Source: Emiliania huxleyi CCMP1516
Taxonomy: Eukaryota
Assembly: GCF_000372725.1 (NCBI RefSeq)
Contig: NW_005201154.1
Span: 118,843-182,842 of the forward strand
Direction: 5' to 3'
DNA: 64,000 nt
The notes beneath the pieces were generated by a model. The model was not told the DNA's origin. It did no database searches and saw only the letters and a program-made list of their open reading frames with translations. The position numbers and the translations under genes are program-made. Shown here piece after piece: positions 17,626 through 59,025 of the stretch (position 1 is its first letter; each line of letters opens with the position of its first letter).

Positions 17626-18604
17626 TCACTGCCCCAGCCCCCACGCCTCGATCTTCTTGGGCAGCAGCTGGTTCTGCTGGTCGCCGTGGCCCAGCTTGCC
17701 ATGGTATCCATGGCCCCAGCTCCAGACACCGCCGTCGGCGGTGATGGCGAGGCTGTGCGCGGGTCGGCGGTGATGGCGAAGCTGTCGTGCGCTCCAGCCG
17801 ACACGGCGACGACGCGCCGGGCAGTCAAGGCCTCAATCTTCTTCGGCAGCAGCTGGTTCTGCTGGTCACGTGGCCCAGCTTGCCATCCTCGCCATCGCCC
17901 CAGCTCCAGACAGCGCCGTCGGCGGTGATGGCGAAGCTGTCGTGCGCTCCAGCCGAGACAGCGACGACGCGCCGCCCAGCAAAGGCCTCGACCTTCCTCG
18001 GCAGCAGCTGGCCCTGCTCGTCGCCGTGGCCCAGCCTGCCAAAGCTTCCATGGCCCCAGCTCCAGACAGCGCCGTCGGCGGTGAAGGCGAGGCTGTGGCC
18101 GCCTCCAGCCGACACACTCACGGCGCACTCGTCACCCAGCGTCGACGGGAGGCGGGTCAGCGTGTTGAGCCGGGTCACGCCCTCGCCGTGGCCGAGGAGC
18201 CCTGGCGTCCAGTCCTCGGCCTTCCCACACGACGACAGCCGCCCCTCGCCGTCGATGAAGAGGCTGTGCCGAGCGCCTCCCGCAGCCCTTGCCGGCGCGT
18301 TGGACTCGCGCAAGAGCGCGGCAAAGCACAGCCAGCGCACGGCGCAGCCCTCGCCCTCTGGTTGCGCCGGCAGCTCGAAGCCGCGCTCTTGCGCCCACAA
18401 GCGGATGCCCTCCTCCGCAAGCGAGGCGTGGAAGAGGAGCGAGACGGCCGCGACGCGAGCGATGTCGATGGGGCTGTCGAAGCGAGAGAGGGCGCGCTCG
18501 AGGAGCTCCCTGGGGAGGTCGAGGAGGCGGGCGGGCGGCGGCGCGTCCGGCGAGGGGGCGGCGGTGGAGGAGGAGGCGAGGCGGCGCGAGCGGCGGGTGG
18601 ACAT
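17626..18604 (-). pseudogene. F-box-like + RCC1-repeat gene, frameshifted and shortened paralog of 54566-55843
   Basis: LLDLPRELLERAL; repeats VSAG..HS..TADGAVWSWG.G..G.LGHGD. 1-bp loss near 17868 (CTGGTCACGTGG versus CTGGTCGCCGTGG) and a short internal duplication at about 17730-17790. Confidence 0.7.
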
Positions 18605-25434: not shown

Positions 25435-26178
25435 AAGCTGAACGTGTCGTACAAGCCGCAGAAGATCGCGCCCTCCTTCGACGGCACGGTGCGCGAGCTG
25501 CTGCACAAGAAGATCCGCGAGGCCTTCATCCACCCGCAGTTCAACACGGACGTGATGAAGCCGATGCTCATCGAGCGGTTGCTCGACCAGGAGGTGGGTG
25601 GAGCCGCCGCCCCCCCCCCCCCCCCACCCCCTCCGCGGGTGGAGAGCTGTGAAGGTCGGCCCCTTCTGAGTCCCCTCCTCACACCGAGTGGCGCGTCACG
25701 GACAGGTCAAGTACCTCTCGGGCGGGGAGCTGCAGCGCGTCGCGCTCGTGCTCGCGCTCGGCGCGCCGAGAGTCGCCGAGAGTCGCCGAGAGTCGCCGAG
25801 AGTCGCCGAGAGTCGCCGAGAGTCGCCGAGAGTCGCCCCGTGCCCGCGCTCGGCACTGCCTCCTCCCCTCCCCGGCACTGCCTCCTCTACCTCTTCTGCA
25901 GTGGCGAGTTGCTGGCTGGTGTGGCCAGGGAAGCCCGTGTGCAATGCCCCGTGTGTGGTGTGTCCCGCGAGTGCGGTGTGCCCCGTCGTCCGTGCCAGGA
26001 CCGTGTGTCCCAGCGACTGACTGGTGTGTGCAGGGAAGCCCGCCGACCTGCACCTGATCTCCCCGTATCTCCCCCACACCTCCCCGCATCTCCCCTGCAG
26101 GGAAGCCCGCCGACCTGTACCTGATCGACGAGCCGTCCGCCTACCTCGACTCAGAGCAGCGCATCTCCGCCTCAAAGG
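25435..26178 (+). CDS. ABCE1: ABCE1/RLI1 internal fragment on a small contig between two gaps
   Basis: [65 protein letters not shown]. Confidence 0.9.
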
Positions 26179-28770: not shown

Positions 28771-28987
28771 NNNNNNNNNNNNNNNNNNNNNNNNNNNNNN
28801 NNNNNNNNNNNNNNNNNNNNNNNNNNNNNNNNNNNNNNNNNNNNNNNNNNNNNNNNNNNNNNNNNNNNNNGTGTGTTGCCTCAATGTTCTTTTAATGCGC
28901 GCCCCCGCCGAAATACACTGCAAATACACCATACACGCGAGATGCGTCGGCAGCGACGCGCACGACCTCTTAAGAAGCACCGTGTCG

Positions 28988-29205
28988 TTAGGATTAGGGT
29001 TAGGGTTAGAATTAGGGTTAGGGTTAGGGTTAGGGTCAGAGAGCGTTCAAGCCGTTGTGCAGCTCCTAAGAGAATGGTCCGGTTTGGGCCGAAACCAAAT
29101 GGAGGAATCAGCGGTCCATCGACACGAGCTCTCGGTGAATGCTTTGGGTTCTTCGGGCTAGGGTTAGGGTTAGGGTTAGGGTTAGGGTTAGGATTAGGGT
29201 AAGGG
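28988..29205 (+). repeat. Two short interstitial telomeric (TTAGGG)n tracts separated by about 120 bp of unique sequence
   Basis: TTAGGG units with TTAGGA/TTAGAA variants at about 28988-29035 and 29158-29205. Confidence 0.9.
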
Positions 29206-29295
29206 GTTGGTTGTCGTCGCGCGCTCTCGATATCTGGCTAGACAGAGACACAGCAGCAGAGGCGACCCAAGCGACACATCAGAGCATGGATGCTT

Positions 29296-29814
29296 GGGGG
29301 CGCGAGCCGCCATCTTGGACTGTGAGGCGAGTATTTGCAACCGGGAGCTCGCCGCCGCCCCTACACCGCCGCCGCCGCCCTCCCGGTGGCAAATAATAGC
29401 CCAAGTCGAAGAGTGCGCCCCGCCCTCGGTATCTGGGCGGCAGGCGGGACTAGAGTGGCACGCTGGTGCACGGATGGGGGCGCGAGCCGCCATCTTGGAC
29501 TGTGAGGCGAGTATTTGCAACCGGGAGCTCGCCGCCGCCCCTACACCGCCGCCGCCGCCCTCCCGGTGGCAAATAATAGAGCCCAAGTCGAAGAGTGCGC
29601 CCCGCCCTCGGTATCTGGGCGGCAGGCGGGACTAGAGTAGCACACTGGTGCGCGGATGGGGGCGCGAGCCGCCATCTTGGACTGTGAGGCGAGTATTTGC
29701 AACCGGGAGCTCGCCGCCGCCCCTACACCGCCGCCGCCGCCCTCCCGGTGGCAAATAATAGCCCAAGTCGAAGAGTGCGCCCCGCCCTCGGTATCTGGGC
29801 GGCAGGCGGGACTA
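29296..29814. repeat. Tandem array of about 2.9 copies of a 180-182-bp unit, each a long imperfect hairpin
   Basis: Units start at 29296, 29476 and 29658 and are almost identical. Confidence 0.95.
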
Positions 29815-44512: not shown

Positions 44513-47500
44513 ATGCTCCAACGCGCTGCGGCTGCTGCCGCCCCAAAACGCTGGTGGCTTGCAAACAGCGGCTCCGCACCGCTCCTCGCGCCGGCCTACG
44601 CAGCACACCAGCGTTCGGTGCCGCGGCTGCCCATCCCGCCGCTCGGCGAGACGCTCGAGCGCTACCTGCGAGCAGCACAGCCGCTGCAGACGCTGGAGGA
44701 GCACGCAGCCACGCGGGCGGCAGTCGCACAGTTCTTCGATACCGACGGGCCCGGGCTCCAGCGCCTCCTCGAGGAGGCTGACGCCGCACTTCCGCACGAC
44801 TCATCGTACCTCGAGTCGCTGTGGTACCGACTCGCCTACCTCGGGCCCCGCTCTCCGGTGCCGATCCACGCCAACCCGTGCTTCACCCTCGCCCCGCCCT
44901 CGCGCCACACGCCGCCTCTGGAGCGCGCCGCCGGGCTCCTCGCCAAGGCGGCACAGTGGGCGCACGCGCTACGGACCGGCACCCTCACCGCTCCGACTGC
45001 CAAGGGCGGCTCACCGCTGTGCATGGCGCTGCTTCCCGCCGTGCTAGGGACGGCGAGGATCCCCCGCCAAGGCTGCGACGTGCTCCACTCCGCCTCCGCG
45101 CCGGACGCCGCGGCGGTCTGCAGGCGCGGCGAGTGGTACTCCGTCCCGCTCTTCGACGCGACAGGCGCACCGCTCACCTTCGTCTCACCCTCGTCAGAAC
45201 AAGCACCAGGATGCCTCAGCACGAGGGGCATCGTTCTCCGCAGGCGCACCGCTCCCGCCCGCGACTCTCCTCGACTCGCTGAAGCAGCTGCCGCCGGCCG
45301 CGGCGCACGCACCCGCAGTCGGGGCGCTGACGGCGTGGCGGCGCGACGAGTGGGCGGAGGCTCGCGCCGCGCTCTCCAGCTCGCCGCAAAACGAGTCGTC
45401 TCTGAAGGCCATCGACGAGGTCAGGAGTCTCCAGCCCGCCGCTCGCGTATCGCTGCGCTCGCTCGTCCTCTCCACCCCTCACCCCCACCCCTCAACCCCC
45501 ACCCCTCACCCCCACCCCTCACCCCCCACCCCTCACCCCCACCCCTCACCCCCCACCCCTCACCCCCACCCCTCACCCCCACCCCTCAACCCCCACCCCT
45601 CACCCCCACCCCTCAAACCCCCACCCCTCACCCCCCCACCCCATCACACCCCCAGGCTCTGCTCGTCCTCTCACTCGACGACTCCGCGCCAGCCTCGCCG
45701 ACCGAGCTCGCCCGCACGTCCCTCTGCGGCGACGCGACGGCGCCCGACAGCCGCGCACCGCCCAGCTCGCACAGCCCCTCCGCCTCTCCCCTCGCCGCAC
45801 TGAGGCGTGTGTGTGCGCCGCTCGACCACCCCACAGGCGCGGTGGTACGACAAGCTCCAGCTGCTCGTCTTCGCCGACGGACAGGCGGCCATCAACTTCG
45901 AGCACGCGCCGCAGGACCGATCTCTCCCCATATCTCCCCATATCTCCCCATGTATCTCAACTTCGAGCACGCGCCGCAGGACCGAGATCTCTCCCCATAT
46001 CTCCCCATATCTCCCCATATATCTCAACTTTGAGCACGCGCCGCAGGACCGAGATCTCTCCCCATATCTCCCCATATATCTCAACTTCGAGCACGCGCCG
46101 CAGGACCGAGATCTCTCCCCATCTCTCCCCATATCTCCCCATGTATCTCAACTTCGAGCACGCGCCGCAGGACCGAGATCTCTCCCCATATCTCCCCATA
46201 TCTCCCCATATATCTCAACTTCGAGCACGCGCCGCAGGACCGAGATCTCTCCCCATATCTCCCCATATCTCCCCATATCTCCCCATATATCTCAACTTCG
46301 AGCACGCGCCGCAGGACCGAGATCTCTCCCCATATCTCCCCATATCTCCCCATATCTCCCCATATATCTCAACTTCGAGCACGCGCCGCAGGATGGGGCG
46401 CAGGTGGTCTCCCTCGCGTCGCACTTGGCCGAGGCGGGCGAACACGAGGCGGGCGAACACGAGGCGGGTGGGCGAAGGCCGGCGGCTCGAGCGGCGCCGC
46501 CACGCCGGCTGCGCTTCGACGTGTCTCCAGAGCTCGGCGCTAAGGTTGAGGCGGCGCGAGCCTGCGCTGCGGCCGAGGCGGCGGCGGCTCAACTTGGGCG
46601 CCGCCACGCCTCCGCCTCTCGAGCTGGGCACCGGTCGCACACCCCTTGTTCAGGCGGCGGCCCTCGACCTCGACACCGCCACGGTGCGCTCCGTCTCGGC
46701 TAGCTGGGCCAAGGGGCGCGGCGTCTCGCTGGACGGTTGGGTCGTGGCCGCTCTCTCGAGCTGGCGCGCAGAGCCCGCCGAGAGTGGGCGAGATGTGGCG
46801 AGAGTAGGCGTGGTGCAGCTCTCCTTCCAGCTGGCGCACAGGCGGCTGACCGGCGGCCTGTCGAGCACGTACGAGGCTTGCTCCACGCAAAGCTTCTCGC
46901 ACGGCCGCACCGAGGCGGCCGCAGTGCCGTGCTTGCTGTCGCATTTGCCTCGCCACTCCCATTCGCGCTCTTGTTGGCCAAAGGTGATCCGGCCGGTGAC
47001 GCGCGAGTCGGCGGCGCTGCTGCAGCGGCTCGAGGAGGGAGACGCCGACGCGGCGGCGCTGCGAGCGGCGCTCGACGCTCAGCGTCGTCTCGTGGCCGAC
47101 TGCCAGCGAGGGAAGGGGCACGGGCGGGGCACCGCCTCCTTCCTCGACCTTTCCTGGACGTTTCCTGAACGTCTTGCTGTAGGCACGGGCACGAGCGTCA
47201 CCTCCTCGCGCTCCTCGTCCAGGAGCGGGAGGCGGGCTTGCCCGCCCCCTCCTCTAGACCCTCTCCTAGACCTCTCCCGGAGCCGTCCTGTAGGCGGAGG
47301 AGGCGGGGATGCCCACGCCCGGCCTGTTTCGCGACTCCGGCTGGGCCACCGTCACTGCGTCCCTCGTCTCAACTTCGGGGTTGCGCTCCCCCGCGCTCGG
47401 CTGGTTCGCATTCGGCCCGGTGGCGCGGCAAGGGGTCGGCCTCGGCTACTTGCTCTCCCCCGACGGCGTCGCGCTCTGCGCCACTTCCTTCCGCGGCAGC

Positions 47501-47611
47501 GGCGCACCCCGCGCCGCAGACCTCGCCGCGGCCGTCGATGAGGCTTGCACGACGCTGCGCGGCGCGGTTGAGACGCTGATACCCGCGCCGCAGCCCACCT
47601 CAAAGTTGTGA
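44513..47611 (+). CDS. Carnitine/choline O-acyltransferase family protein; multi-exon; ends in SKL
   Basis: QRSVPRLPIPPLGETLERYL, TARIP, RWYDKLQL, INFEHAPQDG (catalytic His), TYEACSTQSFSHGRTE|VIRP, GKG|HERHL, STSGL...FGPVA..GVGLGY. Confidence 0.9.
45892..46393 (+). repeat. Eight copies of a 25-bp exon end separated by (CCCCATATCT)n
   Basis: TCAACTTCGAGCACGCGCCGCAGGA repeated eight times. Confidence 0.95.
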
Positions 47612-51222: not shown

Positions 51223-54200
51223 TCACTCGCGGCGCCTCTTCTTGGCGGCGGTGGTCCAGCTGCCGTCCACACCGTGCTCCTCCGCCAGCCGCTGCCTCAC
51301 GTCGTCGGGCGAGTGGAGGAAGAAGTGCTGCCGCAACGCGGCCGGCGGCGTGAGCGCGGCGGCGCCGCCCCGGGGAGAGAGCAGCGCCTCCCACACGGGC
51401 GAGACCGGAGCGACCGTGAAGGGCGTCGGCGGCGCGTCGACTGGCTCCGTGGCGGTGGCGGGCGGGCGCGGCGGCGGCTGCAGCAGCGCGGGCCACGTCT
51501 GAGAGCGAGTGACGCGCGGCACGCTCGACTGCGCGCTCAGCCGCGAGCGACGCGCCGCCCCACGCGTGGGCTGGGCGTACCACGCGACCAGCAGCACCAG
51601 CCGCTGCTCGGCGATGCTCTGCCCGCCTAGGACACGTCCGTGACATGTCCGTGACATGTCCCACAGCCGCTGTGCTCGGCGATGCTCTGCCCGCCGCCGC
51701 CCTTCGCCGTGGCTCTGCCCCGCCCACGGCCGCTGCGGGTGCGGTCGGCACGGGAGGCCCGGCTGCGCGCTGCACCGCCGCCACCACAGCCGCGGCCTGC
51801 AGCGCCATACGCCCCGCCGCCAGAGCCGCGGCCCGGAGCCTCTGCGCCGCAGGGTGGGCCGCCGTTGAAGGCGCCCGGCAGGACCCCATGCAGCCGGTCG
51901 CCTGTGGGGCATGTCGTGGACGTGTCGTGGACGTGTCGTGGACGTGTCGTGGACGTGTCGTGGACGTGTCGTGGACGTGTCGTGGACGTGTCGTGGACGT
52001 GTCGTGGACGTGTCGTGGACGTGTCGTGGACGTGGCGGGAGGGCCCGTGCAGCGTGTCGCCTTTGAAGGTGAGGAAAGAGCGGCTTGCGGGGTGGACGAG
52101 GTACGCGCGCGAGCCCGCCTACGACATGTCCGCGACATGTCCACGACATGTCCACGACATGTCCACGACATGTCATGCACGCGCGCGAGCCCGCCTGCCC
52201 GCCGAGCGTCTCGTCGATCACCTGCGCGCCAGGCGCGGCCTCGGTCAGCTCGCTCCTTCGTGGGCCAGCCCAGCCCCGTACCGCCTGCCGCCTGGTCGAG
52301 GACCATATCTCCCCATATCTCCCCACATCTCCCCATATCTCCCCGTACCGCCTGCCGCCTGGTCGAGGACCATATCTCCCCATATCTCCCCACATCTCCC
52401 CACATCTCCCCGTACCGCCTGCCGCCTGGTCGAGGACCATATCTCCCCATATCTCCCCATATCTCCCCATATCTCCCCGTACCGCCTGCCGCCTGGTCGA
52501 GGACCATATCTCCCCATATCTCCCCACATCTCCCCATCTCTCCCCGTACCGCCTGCCGCCTGGTCGAGGACCAAGCTCTCGGGCGCCCCGCCGTCGGAGA
52601 TGGGGGGAGATGTGGGGAGATGGGGGAGATATGGGGAGATGTCGCACCAGGGTCGGGTCCCCGGCGTCAGAGAGGTAGACGACGGAGGAGACGAGCGGGT
52701 GGAGCACCTACTTCGACCACTCTTCCTGTGTGTATGGAGAGGCAGACGACGGAGGAGACGAGGCGGGGGAGAGGACCTCTCCTCCCGCCTCGAGCGCGCC
52801 CTCCTCCACGTCGTAGTGGAGCTCGTGCCCGACGCCTGTTCGCAGCGAGGAGGGGTGAGGGGGCGCGGGCCACACGGGGGCACGCAATCGTGCAGCCCGC
52901 CCCCCCCTCCACGCCTCTCCCCGCCCCGCGGGAGTGCACCCACCACTCGGCGGACTGCGGCGCCACCTCGCCGGCCAGCTCGCCGGCCAGCGGCGCCAGC
53001 CGGCGCACCAGCCGCGTGACCACATCCTCGTGCGGCGACGGCGGCGAGGCGAGGTCGACGTACCACGTGAAGTAGCGCTTCTCTGCCGAGGCCGACGCGT
53101 ACCGCGTCTCGCTCCAGTACGCGGCGCCTACAGGACATGTCTCGGACGTGTCGTGGACGTGTCGTGGCCGTGTCGCCTCGCTCCAGTGCGCGGCGCCAGG
53201 AGCAAAGGCGCGGCGCAGCTGCTCGCACGTCTCTCGAGGGACAGCGTCCGGGTACACGCGGACCTGTACTCTCGGGTGATCTCGGGTAATCTCGGTTAAT
53301 CTCGGGTAATTTCGAGGGACAGCGTCGGGCACACGCGGACCGGGCAGCCGTCGCGCAGCCCCGAGCCGGCTGGAGGCGGCACCTTGCGCGCAGGGACCCT
53401 CGCCGCCCGCCACACGCACGGAGAGAGGCGCCACCGGAAGCCGAAGGAGCGGATCGCGCCCTCCGCCTCGGTGGCGTCCCAGCTGCGAGGCGAGGAGGGC
53501 GGCGTGCATAGTCGCGAGGCCGACGCAGCGGCGGCGCGGCTCGTACACAAACGCGTCCGCCCAGTCATACTCGCCCTCCTCCTCGCCCTCCTCCTCGCCC
53601 TCCTCCGCCTCCGCCTCCGCCTCCGCCCCCGCCTCCGCCTCCTCCCCGCCCTCCTCCCCGCCCTCCTCCCCGCCCTCCTCCCCGCCCTCCTCCCCGCCCT
53701 CCTCCCCGCCCTCCTCGCAGAGGGACCCTGGGAGCCTCGACACTCTCCGCCACAGAGACAACGCCTCCTCGGCGTCGCCGCCGTCGCGCCGCAGCAGGGC
53801 GAGGCTCATCATCGCGGGCGCGTTCTGCGGCCACGCGGCGAGTGAGGCGCGCAGCAGCGCCTACGGGCAGGGCGAGGGTGGCTCCTCTCGCAGAAGTCCT
53901 CAGCCAGGCAGCCATCCGACCACAAGTCCAGTCCGCCTCTGCCTCTCGTGCTGGTGCCGACGCCCGGGCGAGGAGCGGAAAGCCGAGCGCCGCGGCCTTG
54001 TCCAGCTGGAGCTCGGCGCGGCCGTTGAGCGCGGCGCTCAGGAGCAGGCTCGGAGGAGGCAGCGGGAGTGCCGCGTCCCGTGGCCAGGCGCACGGCGCTG
54101 GGACACGGCCCTCTCCGCCGCCGATGGCGTCGGCAAGAGCCTGCAGTTTCGTGTCTGCCCGAGTGTCGCCAGCCTCGCACGCGTCCTGTGCGTCGAAGAA

Positions 54201-54565: not shown

Positions 54566-55843
54566 TCACAGCCCCGGCGCCCACGCCTCGACCTTCTTGG
54601 GCAGCGGCTGGTTCGACAGGTCCTCTCCGTGGCCAAGGCAGCCGCTTTCGCCCAGACCCCAAGCATAAACAGCGCCATCGGCCGTGGTGGCGAGGCTGTG
54701 GAATGCTCCAGCCGACACAGCGACGACGCGCTGGCCAGCCAAGGCCTCGACCTTCTTGGGCAGCAGCTGCTCCTGCGTGTCGCCGTGGCCCAACTCGCCC
54801 CAGTCTCCAACGCCCCAGCTCCAGACGCTGCCGTCGGCGGTGAGGGTGAGGCTGTGGTAGCCTCCGGCCGACACAGCGACGACGCGCTGGCCAGCCAAGG
54901 CCTCGACTTTCTTCGGCAGCAGCTGGCGCTGCTTGTCGCCGTGGCCCAGCCGGCCACCGCCTCCAGCGCCCCAGCTCCAGACGGCGCCATCGGCAGTGAT
55001 GGCGAAGCTGTGGAATGCTCCAGCCGACACAGCAAGGGCGCGCTGCCCAGCCAAGGCCTCGACCTTCTTCGGCAGCAGCTGCGTCTCCTCGTCGCCGTGG
55101 CCCAGCTCGCCGTTCCCTCCCCAACCCCAGCTCCAGACGGCGCCATCAGCGGTGAGGGCGAGGTTGTGGTACTCTCCGACCGACACAGCGACGACGCGCC
55201 GCCCAGCAAAGGCCTCGATCTTCTTGGGCTGCCACTGGTTCTGCTGGTCGCCGTGGCCAAGCTTGCCGCAGCCTCCGTCGCCCCAGCTCCAGGCGGCGCC
55301 GTCGGCGGTGATGGCGAAGCTGTGATAGGCTCCAGCCGACACGCTCACAGCGCGCTCGCCGCCCAGCGTCGACAGGAGGCGCGTCGGCGTGTTGAGCTGC
55401 GTCACGCCCTCGCCGTGGCCAAGCAGCGCGGGCATTGGATTGTAGTCCGGAGCCGAGCCGCACGACGAGAGCTGCCCCTCGCCGTCGATGAAGAGGCTGT
55501 GCCGTTCGCCTGCGGACACCCTCGCCGGCGGGTTGGCCTTGCGCAGGAGCGCGGCAAAGCACAGCCACCGCACGGCGCAGCTCTCGCCCTCTGGCAGCGC
55601 CGGCAGCTCGAAGCCGCGCCGTTGCGCCCACAAGCGGATGCCCTCCTCCGCAAGCGAGGCGTGGAAGAGCAGCGAGACGGCTGCGACGCGAGCGATGTCG
55701 ATGGGGCTGTCGCAGCGAGAGAGGACGCGCTCGAGGAGCTCCCTGGGGAGGTCGAGCAGGCGGGCGGGCGGCGGCGCGACTGGCGAGGGGGCGGCGGCGG
55801 CGGCGGAGGAGAGGCGGCGCGGGCGGCGGTGCGGCATGGACAT
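54566..55843 (-). CDS. Intronless F-box-like + RCC1-repeat (beta-propeller) protein, 425 aa
   Basis: LLDLPRELLERVL; six-seven VSAG..HS.A.TADG.VWSWG.G..G.LGHGD repeats. Confidence 0.9.
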   Translation of the reverse strand: MSMPHRRPRRLSSAAAAAPSPVAPPPARLLDLPRELLERVLSRCDSPIDIARVAAVSLLFHASLAEEGIRLWAQRRGFELPALPEGESCAVRWLCFAALLRKANPPARVSAGERHSLFIDGEGQLSSCGSAPDYNPMPALLGHGEGVTQLNTPTRLLSTLGGERAVSVSAGAYHSFAITADGAAWSWGDGGCGKLGHGDQQNQWQPKKIEAFAGRRVVAVSVGEYHNLALTADGAVWSWGWGGNGELGHGDEETQLLPKKVEALAGQRALAVSAGAFHSFAITADGAVWSWGAGGGGRLGHGDKQRQLLPKKVEALAGQRVVAVSAGGYHSLTLTADGSVWSWGVGDWGELGHGDTQEQLLPKKVEALAGQRVVAVSAGAFHSLATTADGAVYAWGLGESGCLGHGEDLSNQPLPKKVEAWAPGL

Positions 55844-55993: not shown

Positions 55994-58900
55994 ATGGAGT
56001 GCCGCCGCGTCACGCTCTGGGCCACGCTCGCCCTCGACCTCGCCGCCGCGCTGCTCCTCGGCACCGCCACCGATCCGGCCCGATTCTTTCGCGACGTCTG
56101 GCCTCACCAGCGAGCGCTTTTTGGCGAGACCACCCTCGACCTCATCGCCCTCGCCCTGCTGCGCGTGGTGGTGGTCGTCGCGCTGCTGCTCGCCACTGCA
56201 GGCCGGGCCGCCAGAGTGGCCTCCTCGGCGGCTGCCGCCTCGCCGCCGCTGCTCGAGCCGCTCCAGCTCAACGGCACTAGCGAGCCGCAGCACCCGGTTG
56301 GCGACAAAGGTGGGTGGTGGAGGGCTGCCGTGACGCCCGTGCGGTGCAGCGGCGCGCTCCTCGCGCTGACGGTCGGCTACAGCGCGCTCAAGGCCCTCTT
56401 CCGCATGCTCCAGTCCGGCCTCGGCGACGGCTCTTCCTCGGGCTCTCTCCCGACCGGTGGGACGGAGCCGGCCGAAGTCTGGTTCTGGCTCCTAGAAGCA
56501 GAATACGTGTTCTTGTATCCCAACTAAGCCCGAGAGGGCCACGTATTCAGCCGTCTTCGGCCGTGTTCCGCTGTATTCACTGTATTCTTCTCCGTTGTAC
56601 TCACGCGGTGCTCTGAACACGCTGCACAATACCGCATTCCCGCCCTGATGTTGGCGTATTCAGCACGTAGGTTCTGGCTCACGCTGGCGGCGGGGTGCGT
56701 GTCGTCGAGCGGAGAGCACGTCCTCTGCAGGCGGCTGCTCCGCCGCGCCGCGGCCGCCGGCGAGGGGGGGGCGGCGGCCCGGGCGGGCGGCAAGCAGAAG
56801 AAGAGCGACGACCCCGCCGAGGCTGCCAAGAAGGCGGGAGCCCAGCGGGAGATATGGGGAGATATGGGGAGATATGGGGAGATACGCCAAGAAGGCGAGA
56901 GCCCAGTGGGCCCGGAGGCGGGTCGGTGGCGGGTCGGTGACGCGCGGCGGGTGACATGTGCACATGCGCGACGTGTGCCGCAGGCGTACCTCGAGCGGAC
57001 TGGAGATATGGGGAGATATGGGGAGATATGGGGAGCATGCGACGTGAGCCGCAGGCGTACCTCGAGCGGACTGGGCCGAGGCAGGTCCAGTCCGTGCGCG
57101 CCATCTTCGCAATGGTGAGAAGAGAAGAGAAGAGAAGAGAAGAGAAGAGAAGGTCCAGTCCGTGCGCGCCATCTTCGCAATGGTGAGAAGAGAAGAGAAG
57201 AGAAGAGAGTGCGCGCCATCTTCGCAATGGCGAGAAGCAGCACTGGCGCCGGAGGAGGGCCGTGCTGGAATAGCAACCCATGCGGAGTCACAATTGCTCA
57301 GGTGAAGCCGGACTGGCACCTGATGGCTTTCGCGTACGCGTCACTCGCCATCGCCGCCGCCGGGGACACGTCGATCCCCTTCCTGTACGGCCAACTCATC
57401 GACGCGATCGCAATCTCGCGCGACGTGGGCAAGTTCCAGCAGTACATGCTGCTGCTCGTCGGCACCGCCCTCGTCACCGGCGTCTTCACCGGATTCCGAG
57501 GCTCCACCTTCATCGTCATCGGCGGCCGCTTCTCAGTGCGGCTGAGGCAGCGCCTGTTCGCCTCGCTGCTGCGGCAGGAGCTCGACTTCTTCTCCGCCGT
57601 CCGCACGGGCGACATCACCTCGCGCCTCTCTGCAGACTGCCAAAAGGTGGGCGACCAGGTGCAACTCAACGTCAACGTCTTCCTGCGCTCCGTCATCCAG
57701 GCCCTCTCCCTCCCCTCCTCCTCTCCCTCGCCTCCTCCCGCCACCCCACCATCGACCCGCCACACCCTAACGAGCGCACGGCGGCTAATCCCCTCCTCGA
57801 GCGCCCGTGCTCCCCCTCTCACCACAAGCTCCCCGAAAAGGGGGCCGTCGCAGCTTTCTTTTCTGTCTCGTCACCGCCCGCTCTCCCGCAGGTGCTGCTC
57901 GATGACGTGCCCATCTCTCGGCTCGACCCGGGCTGGTTCCACCGGCAAGTTGCGCTGGTGGGGCAGGAGCCCGTCCTCTTCGCCCGCTCGATCGAGGACA
58001 ACATCTGCTACGGCCTCGGCGAGCGCGGGGAGGGGCGGCCCTCGACAGAGGAGGTGCACGCCGCCGCGCAGCTCGCCAGGACATGTCCTGGACAGGTCCG
58101 TGACATGAACATGCACATGTACATGTACATGTCGCAGGTGCACGCCGCCGCGCAGCTCGCCAACGCGCACGACTTCGTCTCCGGCTTTGACCTCGGCTGC
58201 GGCGCGCCGGCTGGCACGAGGAGCGCCCCTTCACCACTGAGCGGCGTGAGCAGGCTTCGAGCTCGGCTACGCCACGCCCGTCGGCGAGCGGGGCGCGCAG
58301 TTGAGCGGCGGGCAGAAGCAGCGCATCGCGATCGCGCGCGCGCTGGTGCGGCACCCGTGTGTCGCGTGCTCTCTCCCCGCCATCTCCCCGCATCTCCCCG
58401 CATCTCCCCGCATCTCCCCGCATCTCCCCGCATCTCCCCGCATCTCCCCGCAGGTGCGGCACCCGTGCGTGCTGCTGCTCGACGAGGCGCCGAGAAGAGA
58501 AGAGAAGAGAAGAAAAGAGCGTGCTGCTGCTTGCGAGGCACCGAGCTGCAGCTATCTCCCCGTATTCCCCATATCTCCCCCTATCTCCCCTATCTCCCCG
58601 TATCTCCCCACATCTCCCGTGCTGCTGCTCGACGAGGCGCCGAGCTGCGGCGCGGGCGCGGGCGCGGAGTTGCGCCGCAGCCTCACCGCGGCCCTTTGCC
58701 GTCCGCTCAGGCGACGAGCGCGCTCGACGCGGAGAGCGAGGCGGTGGTGCAGGCGGCGATCGACTCCATGATTGCGCAGGGCGGGATGACGGTGGTCGTC
58801 ATCGCGCACCGGCTGTCGACCATCCGGAACGCCGACCGCATCTGCGTCGTCAAGGGGGGGAGGGTCGCCGAGGAGGGCCCGCACCACGAGCTCATGACAA

Positions 58901-59025
58901 GGCCGGCGGGCGTCTACGCGAAGCTCGTCTCGAAGCAGATGGCGCTCCACTCGGGCTCGACCGGCTCCCTCTCCGGCGCCGGTGGCAGCGCGGCAAACCT
59001 GGACGCGGGAGGGCAGGAGGCATGA
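55994..59025 (+). CDS. ABCB (TAP/ABCB9-like) half transporter; multi-exon; central part apparently missing
   Basis: Extra N-terminal TM region; [84 protein letters not shown]. No Walker A found. Confidence 0.85.

What the first reader, a model, noticed from the sequence alone, without database searches (positions are those of the whole stretch)
45892..46393. Catalytic-His motif of the carnitine acyltransferase repeated eight times; GA-AG intron or in-frame insertion
Seen: the 25 bp encoding (I)NFEHAPQD is repeated eight times with (CCCCATATCT)n spacers. Removing 45915-46391 (GA...CAG) restores EHAPQDG; every copy offers another CAG acceptor and another GA donor. The 477-bp segment is also a multiple of three and stop-free (ORF 45807..46703), so retention would insert 159 aa at the active site. 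Inference: an iterated echo event that might be spliced recursively or alternatively.
Basis: partly seen in the sequence, partly recalled or inferred. Interest (0 to 1): 0.7.

Follow-up and report, generated by a model that had tools for sequence, protein, structure and literature searches.

The report
Echo-built intron expanded into eight copies
In a marine alga's fat-handling enzyme gene, a 25-base piece of coding sequence is repeated eight times with a simple filler between copies, and the whole block is cut out of the messenger RNA so the protein stays normal; the same copy-plus-filler pattern recurs across this DNA, mostly at likely splice points, and likely shows how this alga makes new introns.

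Summary
In detail: 8 copies of a 25-bp coding piece, 7 units of 57-77 nt, 477 nt in all. RNA contigs of 4 of 6 studies laid skip the whole block and restore one EHAPQDG; the spliced model is an open 616-aa choline/carnitine acyltransferase. GA-AG is ordinary here: 3 of 9 introns of this gene, and 4% of curated donors in Emiliania huxleyi (PMC4028052). The 159-aa insertion is most likely chance: 3 of 9 introns are 3n, 3108 of 5040 unit orders are stop-free, only 4 of 8 copies are in frame. Recursive splicing is possible by anatomy but untested. The larger finding: exon echo plus 10/11-mer filler is a window-wide class (19 of 44 short-period arrays above the null's 99th percentile; 15 of 19 cleanly spliceable, 8.3 expected), and iterated arrays recur at 52274 and in an E. 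huxleyi gene model. Likely intron gain by duplication with filler, then slippage. Not found in 8 answered paper searches, nor earlier in this scan.

The parts
44513..47611 (+). Choline/carnitine O-acyltransferase family gene, 10 exons (44513-45164, 45244-45419, 45656-45739, 45837-45914, 46392-46577, 46654-46735, 46808-46914, 46984-47111, 47183-47222, 47294-47611), 616 aa, ends SKL
   Evidence: PF00755 above cut-off on 5 of 6 pieces; open model, blastp E 1e-66 to 1e-122 to P0001-P0005; 7 of 9 introns seen in RNA contigs, first two inferred from frame
45915..46391 (+). 477-nt phase-0 GA-AG intron made of 7 tandem units (65, 67, 57, 67, 67, 77, 77 nt), each filler + echo, each bounded GA...CAG
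   Evidence: skipped whole in X5, X6, X7, X9
45892..45916 (+). First copy of the 25-bp echo; holds the codons of the catalytic-His motif and the GA donor
   Evidence: aligns to the FEH motif of CPT2, ChAT and CrAT chains
46369..46393 (+). Last copy of the echo; supplies the final CAG acceptor
45917..46368 (+). Filler: 2-4 copies per unit of the 10-mer CCCCATATCT, opened by the palindrome GAGATCTC in units 2-7; six internal echo copies
45165..45243 (+). 79-nt GC-AG intron of the same gene with a 14-bp echo
45740..45836 (+).
   Evidence: joint in 4 of 4 runs
46578..46653 (+). 76-nt GC-AG intron with a 10-bp echo, often read through
   Evidence: joint in 1 of 4 runs, read-through contigs in X1, X6, X7, X10
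47112..47182 (+). Second GA-AG intron of the gene (71 nt)
   Evidence: deduced from the joint 47126-47292 with 23 letters between and 3 other letters, 4 of 4 runs
47223..47293 (+). Third GA-AG intron of the gene (71 nt)
52274..52573 (-). Second iterated echo array: 5 copies of a 32-bp piece, 67-bp period, same 10-mer filler; straddles an inferred acceptor of a minus-strand gene
   Evidence: frame only, no RNA laid
58054..58137 (+). 84-nt GT-AG echo intron (27-bp echo) in an ABC transporter gene
   Evidence: frame and motif, no RNA laid
58346..58453 (+). 108-nt GT-AG echo intron (15-bp echo) between the ABC signature and Walker B
   Evidence: frame and motif, no RNA laid
25761..26100 (+). Inferred 340-nt GC-AG intron of an ABCE1/RLI gene with echoes at both ends; the acceptor 12-mer occurs three times and only the last copy continues in frame
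   Evidence: no RNA laid

Best explanation
This is a GA-AG intron that is cut out whole in the mature RNA, leaving a normal acyltransferase, and it likely arose when a 25-base coding piece was duplicated around a simple-repeat filler and the resulting unit then likely multiplied by slippage. Steps: (1, shown) the mature RNA has one motif copy. (2, inferred) A repair or template-switch event copied 25 bp of exon and put a 10-mer filler between the copies; because the copied piece holds CAG|GA and this lineage accepts GA donors, the first copy gives the donor, the second the acceptor, and the coding sequence is unchanged. (3, inferred) Direct repeats 57-77 bp apart let the unit expand to seven by slippage or unequal exchange, neutral because any number of units splices to the same mRNA. 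(4, inferred) Units seen in RNA are unspliced or partly spliced molecules, as for the other introns of this gene. The same process likely made many short introns in this genome.
For: Skip of all 477 nt: loose ends in X5 and X9, one 548-nt contig on both sides in X6, loose end in X7; the X6 and X9 contigs also skip the upstream intron, so they are spliced RNA. An environmental protein P0006 (JGI, 1337-nt contig) has the single motif. Open 616-aa model. 3 of 9 introns are GA-AG; GA donors 11 of 241 curated junctions in E. huxleyi, one checked by Sanger (PMC4028052, passages). The intron holds only echo and filler, no remnant of an older intron. Units share both junctions, differ by whole 10-mers and point changes (6 distinct of 7), with a 191-bp higher-order period at 97%. 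Class-wide: 9 of the 44 other short-period arrays have exact flanking repeats of 15 bp or more against 1 of 2292 and 2 of 2000 in nulls; allowing mismatches 19 of 44, of which 15 allow a clean cut against 8.3 expected, p = 0.002. EMIHUDRAFT_107479 ends in four echo copies parted by the same filler peptide.
Against: No intron-less allele or orthologous genomic DNA was seen, so 'gain' is inferred from anatomy only (no genome held; the metagenome scan gave no answer). In 2 of 6 runs (X1, X10) contigs break at the junction and no bridging piece is listed (tables are cut). Internal-unit contigs are deep relative to exon contigs in X10, X6 and X1 (169.8, 47.8, 55.5 against about 65-89, 19, 33), which may mean poor splicing. 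5 of 6 runs are only guessed to be RNA. Several echoes straddle donors or acceptors of larger introns instead of forming new ones, so echo does not equal gain in every case. At 57085-57230 and 58468-58644 iterated copies have different ends or fillers, which fits repeated events rather than slippage. Junction calls outside this gene rest on frame only. Direct repeats also flank old introns in other species (PMC3443670, section 9).
Confidence: 0.72

Rival explanations
1. The array is removed stepwise: each 57-77-nt unit is a mini-intron and each CAG|GA is a zero-length ratchet point (recursive splicing). Same final mRNA as the best explanation; differs in route.
For: Every unit is bounded GA...CAG and removal of one regenerates the donor; unit lengths are close to the 69-97 nt of 7 of the 8 other introns; internal-unit contigs occur in 5 of 6 runs; in X1 the contig leaving the upstream exon differs from the window at 45921, as use of acceptors 2-7 would give (record 4). 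The second array also repeats an AG|GC site.
Against: Contigs cannot tell intermediates from unspliced RNA. X1 carries other letters at 5 places, so record 4 is as well explained by an allele. In the ABCE1-like gene the frame needs the third of three identical AG|GG acceptors, a site not among the donors counted in PMC4028052, so one-step skipping of upstream copies seems possible here (inferred). A 236-nt intron in the same gene has no such sites.
Confidence: 0.2
2. Retention or in-frame alternative acceptors make a functional or regulatory isoform with up to 159 extra residues at the active site.
For: 477 is 3n and stop-free; acceptors 3 and 4 keep the frame; unit-bearing RNA exists.
Against: 3 of 9 introns are 3n; the block has no TAA or TAG and one TGA in any frame; 3108 of 5040 unit orders are stop-free; 4 of 6 partial choices shift the frame; the insert is Pro/Ser/Ile-rich filler; none of the 6 family proteins aligned has an insertion there; read-through is general (PMC4028052).
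Confidence: 0.04
3. The echo is the target-site duplication of a mobile element (Introner, or a retroelement that left only a simple-repeat tail), not of repair synthesis.
For: Direct repeat flanking an insert; shared filler motifs across loci; Introners recruit splice sites from their target duplications, also in Chrysochromulina (PMC9860276, passages). Retroelement duplications of 7-20 bp or more are recalled, not tested.
Against: Introner duplications are 3-9 bp, here 14-34; no terminal inverted repeat; fillers differ in motif, length and orientation from locus to locus; no poly(A) or element body; the 30-nt filler pattern has 0 matches in viral and prokaryote contigs.
Confidence: 0.12
4. 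The array, or its copy number, is an assembly artefact.
For: The window is a gapped draft (6 N runs); no DNA reads were laid; exact number 8 is unchecked.
Against: 6 of 7 units differ from each other; filler-echo-filler contigs of 60-93 nt occur in 5 of 6 independent runs, so three or more copies exist in real molecules; both unspliced junction contigs are in X1.
Confidence: 0.06

Closest known systems
GA-AG and GC-AG introns and pervasive intron retention of Emiliania huxleyi (Feldmesser et al. 2014, PMC4028052; passages read)
   Same: Donor mix (here GC 4, GA 3, GT 2 of 9), AG acceptor, read-through of many introns
   Different: The passages seen say nothing on direct repeats, fillers or iterated units
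Intron gain by tandem genomic duplication (reviewed in PMC3443670; passages read)
   Same: A duplicated exon piece holding an AG|G site gives donor and acceptor with no change to the protein
   Different: Site is CAG|GA, not AGGT; most of the intron is simple-repeat filler, not duplicated exon; unit is then iterated
[quoted passage not shown]
   Same: Insert flanked by direct repeats
   Different: Repeats here are 14-34 bp, inserts are 10/11-mer arrays of shared families, and many sit across existing splice sites
Introners (PMC9860276; passages read)
   Same: Splice sites recruited from the duplicated target; many introns of one build in one genome
   Different: Duplication far longer than 3-9 bp, no terminal inverted repeats, no fixed element sequence; Emiliania not named in the main text
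Recursive splicing at ratchet points (recalled; paper not held)
   Same: AG directly followed by a donor, zero-length exon
   Different: Recalled cases are very long animal introns with AG|GT; here 57-77-nt units with AG|GA, no intermediates shown
10-11-bp tandem repeats enriched in E. huxleyi introns (Read et al. 2013; recalled, paper not held)
   Same: Period and intronic place of the filler
   Different: I do not recall flanking echoes being reported; its text and supplement were not seen

Membership tests
Choline/carnitine O-acyltransferase (PF00755) | Pfam match along the protein | tested here: met
   5 of 6 pieces above the curated cut-off, profile positions 1-572 in order
Choline/carnitine O-acyltransferase (PF00755) | His motif of the active site | tested here: met
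   Aligns to FEH of CPT2, ChAT, CrAT chains; that this His is catalytic is recalled
Choline/carnitine O-acyltransferase (PF00755) | Substrate and compartment | not testable with these tools
   C-terminal SKL seen; peroxisomal reading recalled
E. huxleyi-type GA-AG spliceosomal intron | Removed from RNA with GA...AG ends | tested here: met
   4 of 6 studies skip 477 nt; ends fixed by the only AG|G cut in the repeat
E. huxleyi-type GA-AG spliceosomal intron | Lariat and branch point | tested here: inconclusive
   A YNYYRAY heptamer at -20 in each unit, but 7 of the 8 other introns have none
E. huxleyi-type GA-AG spliceosomal intron | Host is E. huxleyi or a close haptophyte | tested here: inconclusive
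   Best named relative from Diacronema; filler peptide in two E. huxleyi models; GC about 0.65; species not fixed
Tandem-duplication intron gain | Duplicated exon piece supplies both splice sites | tested here: met
Tandem-duplication intron gain | Intron consists of duplicated exon only | tested here: not met
   32-52 nt of each unit is filler
Tandem-duplication intron gain | Orthologue or allele without the intron | not testable with these tools
   No genome, metagenome scan unanswered
Break-repair intron gain | Direct repeats flank the insert above background | tested here: met
   background is non-array DNA, not conserved introns
Break-repair intron gain | Insert traceable to captured (e.g. 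mitochondrial) DNA | tested here: not met
   Insert is a 10-mer array
Introner | 3-9-bp target duplication | tested here: not met
   25 bp here, 14-34 bp in the class
Introner | Terminal inverted repeats | tested here: not met
   Only the internal palindrome GAGATCTC
Introner | Family of end-to-end similar introns | tested here: inconclusive
   Motifs are shared but lengths, ends and orientation differ; one window only
Recursive splicing | Acceptor directly followed by a usable donor | tested here: met
   CAG|GA at 8 of 8 copies
Recursive splicing | Intermediates or internal lariats | not testable with these tools
   All runs are contigs
Stem-closed non-conventional introns (euglenozoan type) | Ends pair in a stable stem | tested here: not met
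   z -0.85, 18 of 100 shuffles fold as well

The most novel reading that the evidence does not exclude
This haptophyte runs an undescribed, still active intron factory: a process that copies 15-35 bp at or near splice junctions and fills the gap with 10/11-mer repeats. Where the copy holds AG|G it makes a finished intron in one step; units can be amplified into arrays of self-contained mini-introns that are spliced recursively through AG|GA or AG|GC points, and can be lost again precisely by slippage, so introns should be polymorphic among strains.
Probability: 0.3. Interest if true: 0.78.

Novelty: new variant of a known kind. Interest (0 to 1): 0.55.

Why it matters
How spliceosomal introns are gained is a long-open question, and most gained introns show no trace of their origin (PMC3443670). 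Here the trace is plain in many introns of one 64-kb window, in a lineage with public strain genomes and transcriptomes, so gain, expansion and precise loss can be tested by comparing alleles. It may also explain the origin of the 10-11-bp intronic repeats recalled for E. huxleyi, and it warns that gene models there contain false peptides of the filler (P0008, P0017). The focal enzyme itself is ordinary.

Tried and rejected
Whole-genome census: no genome held. Alleles in metagenomes: scan gave no answer. Copy number from contig depth: internal unit 55.5 against junction contigs 30.8 and 10.7 in X1 would give about 2-5 copies, but contig depth is no copy number, so not used. Branch-point argument for mini-introns: rejected, since the heptamer is absent from 7 of 8 other introns. 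RNA structure: none. Viral or prokaryotic source of the filler: 0 matches in each. X1 record 4 as proof of alternative acceptors: rejected as undecidable from an allele. The split of arrays into a GAGAT/GACAT-core family (17 of 24 with echo, against 2 of 20 others) was defined after seeing the data and is only a lead. Own annotated protein of this gene not found in 3 homologue searches. Papers on Calcidiscus, Gephyrocapsa haplotypes, Isochrysis and intron taxonomy: passages seen, nothing on echoes. No structure or complex was predicted.

Full report
Observation. The window has eight copies of a 24-25-bp coding piece at 45893-46393 with periods 65, 67, 57, 67, 67, 77 and 77. The block 45915-46391 is 477 nt, starts GA, ends CAG, and its removal restores one EHAPQDG. 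All 8 copies carry CAG|GA. TRF gives periods 10, 67 and a higher-order 191 at 97%. Six of the seven units differ from each other.

Gene. Five of six translated pieces match PF00755 above its cut-off, in profile order. A ten-exon model is open for 616 aa and ends SKL; it matches P0001-P0005 at E 1e-66 to 1e-122. The motif aligns to the FEH of CPT2, ChAT and CrAT chains; its catalytic role is recalled. The host is likely an Emiliania-like haptophyte: GC about 0.65, best named relative from Diacronema, the filler peptide in two E. huxleyi gene models. No genome was held.

RNA. Eleven runs of six studies hold half or more of the words; one is on record as RNA, the rest are guessed. I laid 6 of the 11, one per study, on the two flanks, so the skip is read from loose ends and record coordinates, not from a joint row. 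X5 and X9 run from 45916 into the exon at 46394; one 548-nt contig of X6 lies on both sides; X7 has the upstream exon before 46369. That is 4 of 6. In X1 and X10 contigs break at the junction and no bridge is listed; the tables are cut. The X6 and X9 contigs also skip 45740-45836, so they are spliced. P0006, from a 1337-nt JGI contig, has one motif copy and lacks four downstream introns. Because the repeat is direct, the cut can slide over 25 nt; CAG|GA is its only AG|G register. Contigs holding filler-echo-filler occur in 5 of 6 runs (X1 55.5, X5 33.9, X6 47.8, X9 24.6, X10 169.8), and X1 has both unspliced junctions, so the array is real and partly read through. Other introns are read through as well: 45740-45836 in X1, 46578-46653 in four runs, 46736-46807 in X1 and X6.

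GA donors are ordinary here. The joint 47126-47292 with 23 letters between and 3 other letters, seen in 4 of 4 runs, resolves to two more GA-AG introns. The gene has GC 4, GA 3, GT 2 donors. Feldmesser et al. (PMC4028052, passages read) count GC 56%, GT 40%, GA 4% of 241 curated junctions and reads through 89% of 535 introns.

The 159-aa insertion. Three of nine introns are 3n. The block has no TAA or TAG and one TGA; 3108 of 5040 orders of the units are stop-free. Only 4 of 8 copies are in frame, and 4 of 6 partial acceptor choices shift the frame. None of the six family proteins aligned has an insertion here. I read it as chance.

A class, not a one-off. Of 50 short-period arrays, 15 have an exact flanking direct repeat of 15 bp or more; 6 belong to this locus, leaving 9 of 44; nulls give 1 of 2292 and 2 of 2000. 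With mismatches, this locus counted once and one array at the window end dropped, 19 of 44 exceed the null's 99th percentile, and 15 of 19 allow a clean AG|G[TCA] cut on either strand against 8.3 expected (p = 0.002). By frame and motif (no RNA laid) some echoes form whole introns (58054, 58346, 52194, 52060, 51694) and others straddle donors or acceptors of larger introns (56825, 56977, 57085, 58468, 25761-26100, 52274). A second iterated array has five copies at 67-bp spacing with the same filler. EMIHUDRAFT_107479 ends in four copies of a 12-residue piece parted by the filler peptide, and unnamed proteins P0009, P0010, P0018 look alike.

Mechanism. Shown: whole removal, one motif in the mRNA, units in some RNA. 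Inferred: one event duplicated 25 bp around a filler; CAG|GA made it an intron at once; the unit then expanded by slippage or unequal exchange, as the shared junctions, steps of 10 nt and the 191-bp period suggest. The intron holds only echo and filler, which favours gain over reworking of an old intron, but no intron-less allele was seen. Selection alone could explain why surviving echoes in genes are spliceable. Whether the array is cut in one step or seven is open: each unit is a mini-intron by anatomy, but the ABCE1-like gene appears to skip two identical upstream acceptors, and the branch-point and X1 hints did not hold up.

Comparison. It works like tandem-duplication and break-repair intron gain (PMC3443670, passages and section 9 read) but has longer repeats and a 10/11-mer filler. 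It fails the Introner tests of 3-9-bp duplication and terminal inverted repeats (PMC9860276, passages) and shows no closing stem. The 10-11-bp intronic repeats of E. huxleyi and recursive splicing are recalled; those papers were not held, and their text or supplements may already mention echoes. Eight answered searches (and, as the last, 56 makes nine listed; 20 and 21 timed out) showed no description in the listings or in the passages read. The scan's own notes had nothing on this genome, its relatives or this pattern.

Verdict. Real, spliced, and harmless to the enzyme; the active-site location and the 3n length are incidental. The interest lies in the class: a visible and testable route of intron gain and expansion. 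New variant of a known kind, interest 0.55.

Noticed in passing
window 52274-52573: Second iterated echo array, five copies, same filler, across an inferred acceptor of a minus-strand gene whose frame stays open over four inferred introns.
   Followed up: partly
window 55996-59025: ABC transporter gene with at least six echo structures at its junctions; about half of the membrane domain and the Walker A region seem absent between 57700 and 57892 (Pfam covers profile 6-127 of 274), so it may be broken or mis-assembled.
   Followed up: partly
window 25700-26177: ABCE1/RLI gene; one intron has echoes at both ends and three copies of the acceptor 12-mer (25926, 26031, 26098).
   Followed up: partly
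window 47112-47182: RNA uses a GA donor although a GC donor with a 9-bp echo lies 6 nt downstream; P0006 reads through a version of this intron in frame.
   Followed up: partly
window 45984-45991 and later units: The filler opens with the palindrome GAGATCTC, where the two orientations of the motif meet; a possible fold-back mark.
   Followed up: no
window 47600-47611: The protein ends SKL, and relatives P0001, P0003, P0004 end KL or RL; possibly peroxisomal (recalled signal).
   Followed up: no
window 28987-29205: Two short (TTAGGG)n tracts inside the window next to an N gap, followed by a 182-bp repeat at 29295-29814.
   Followed up: no
window 17660-18116 and 54585-55342: Related 155-156-bp coding repeats at two places, probably RCC1-like blades.
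   Followed up: no
P0008, P0017: E. huxleyi gene models carry filler peptides, likely unspliced echo introns read as exon.
   Followed up: partly
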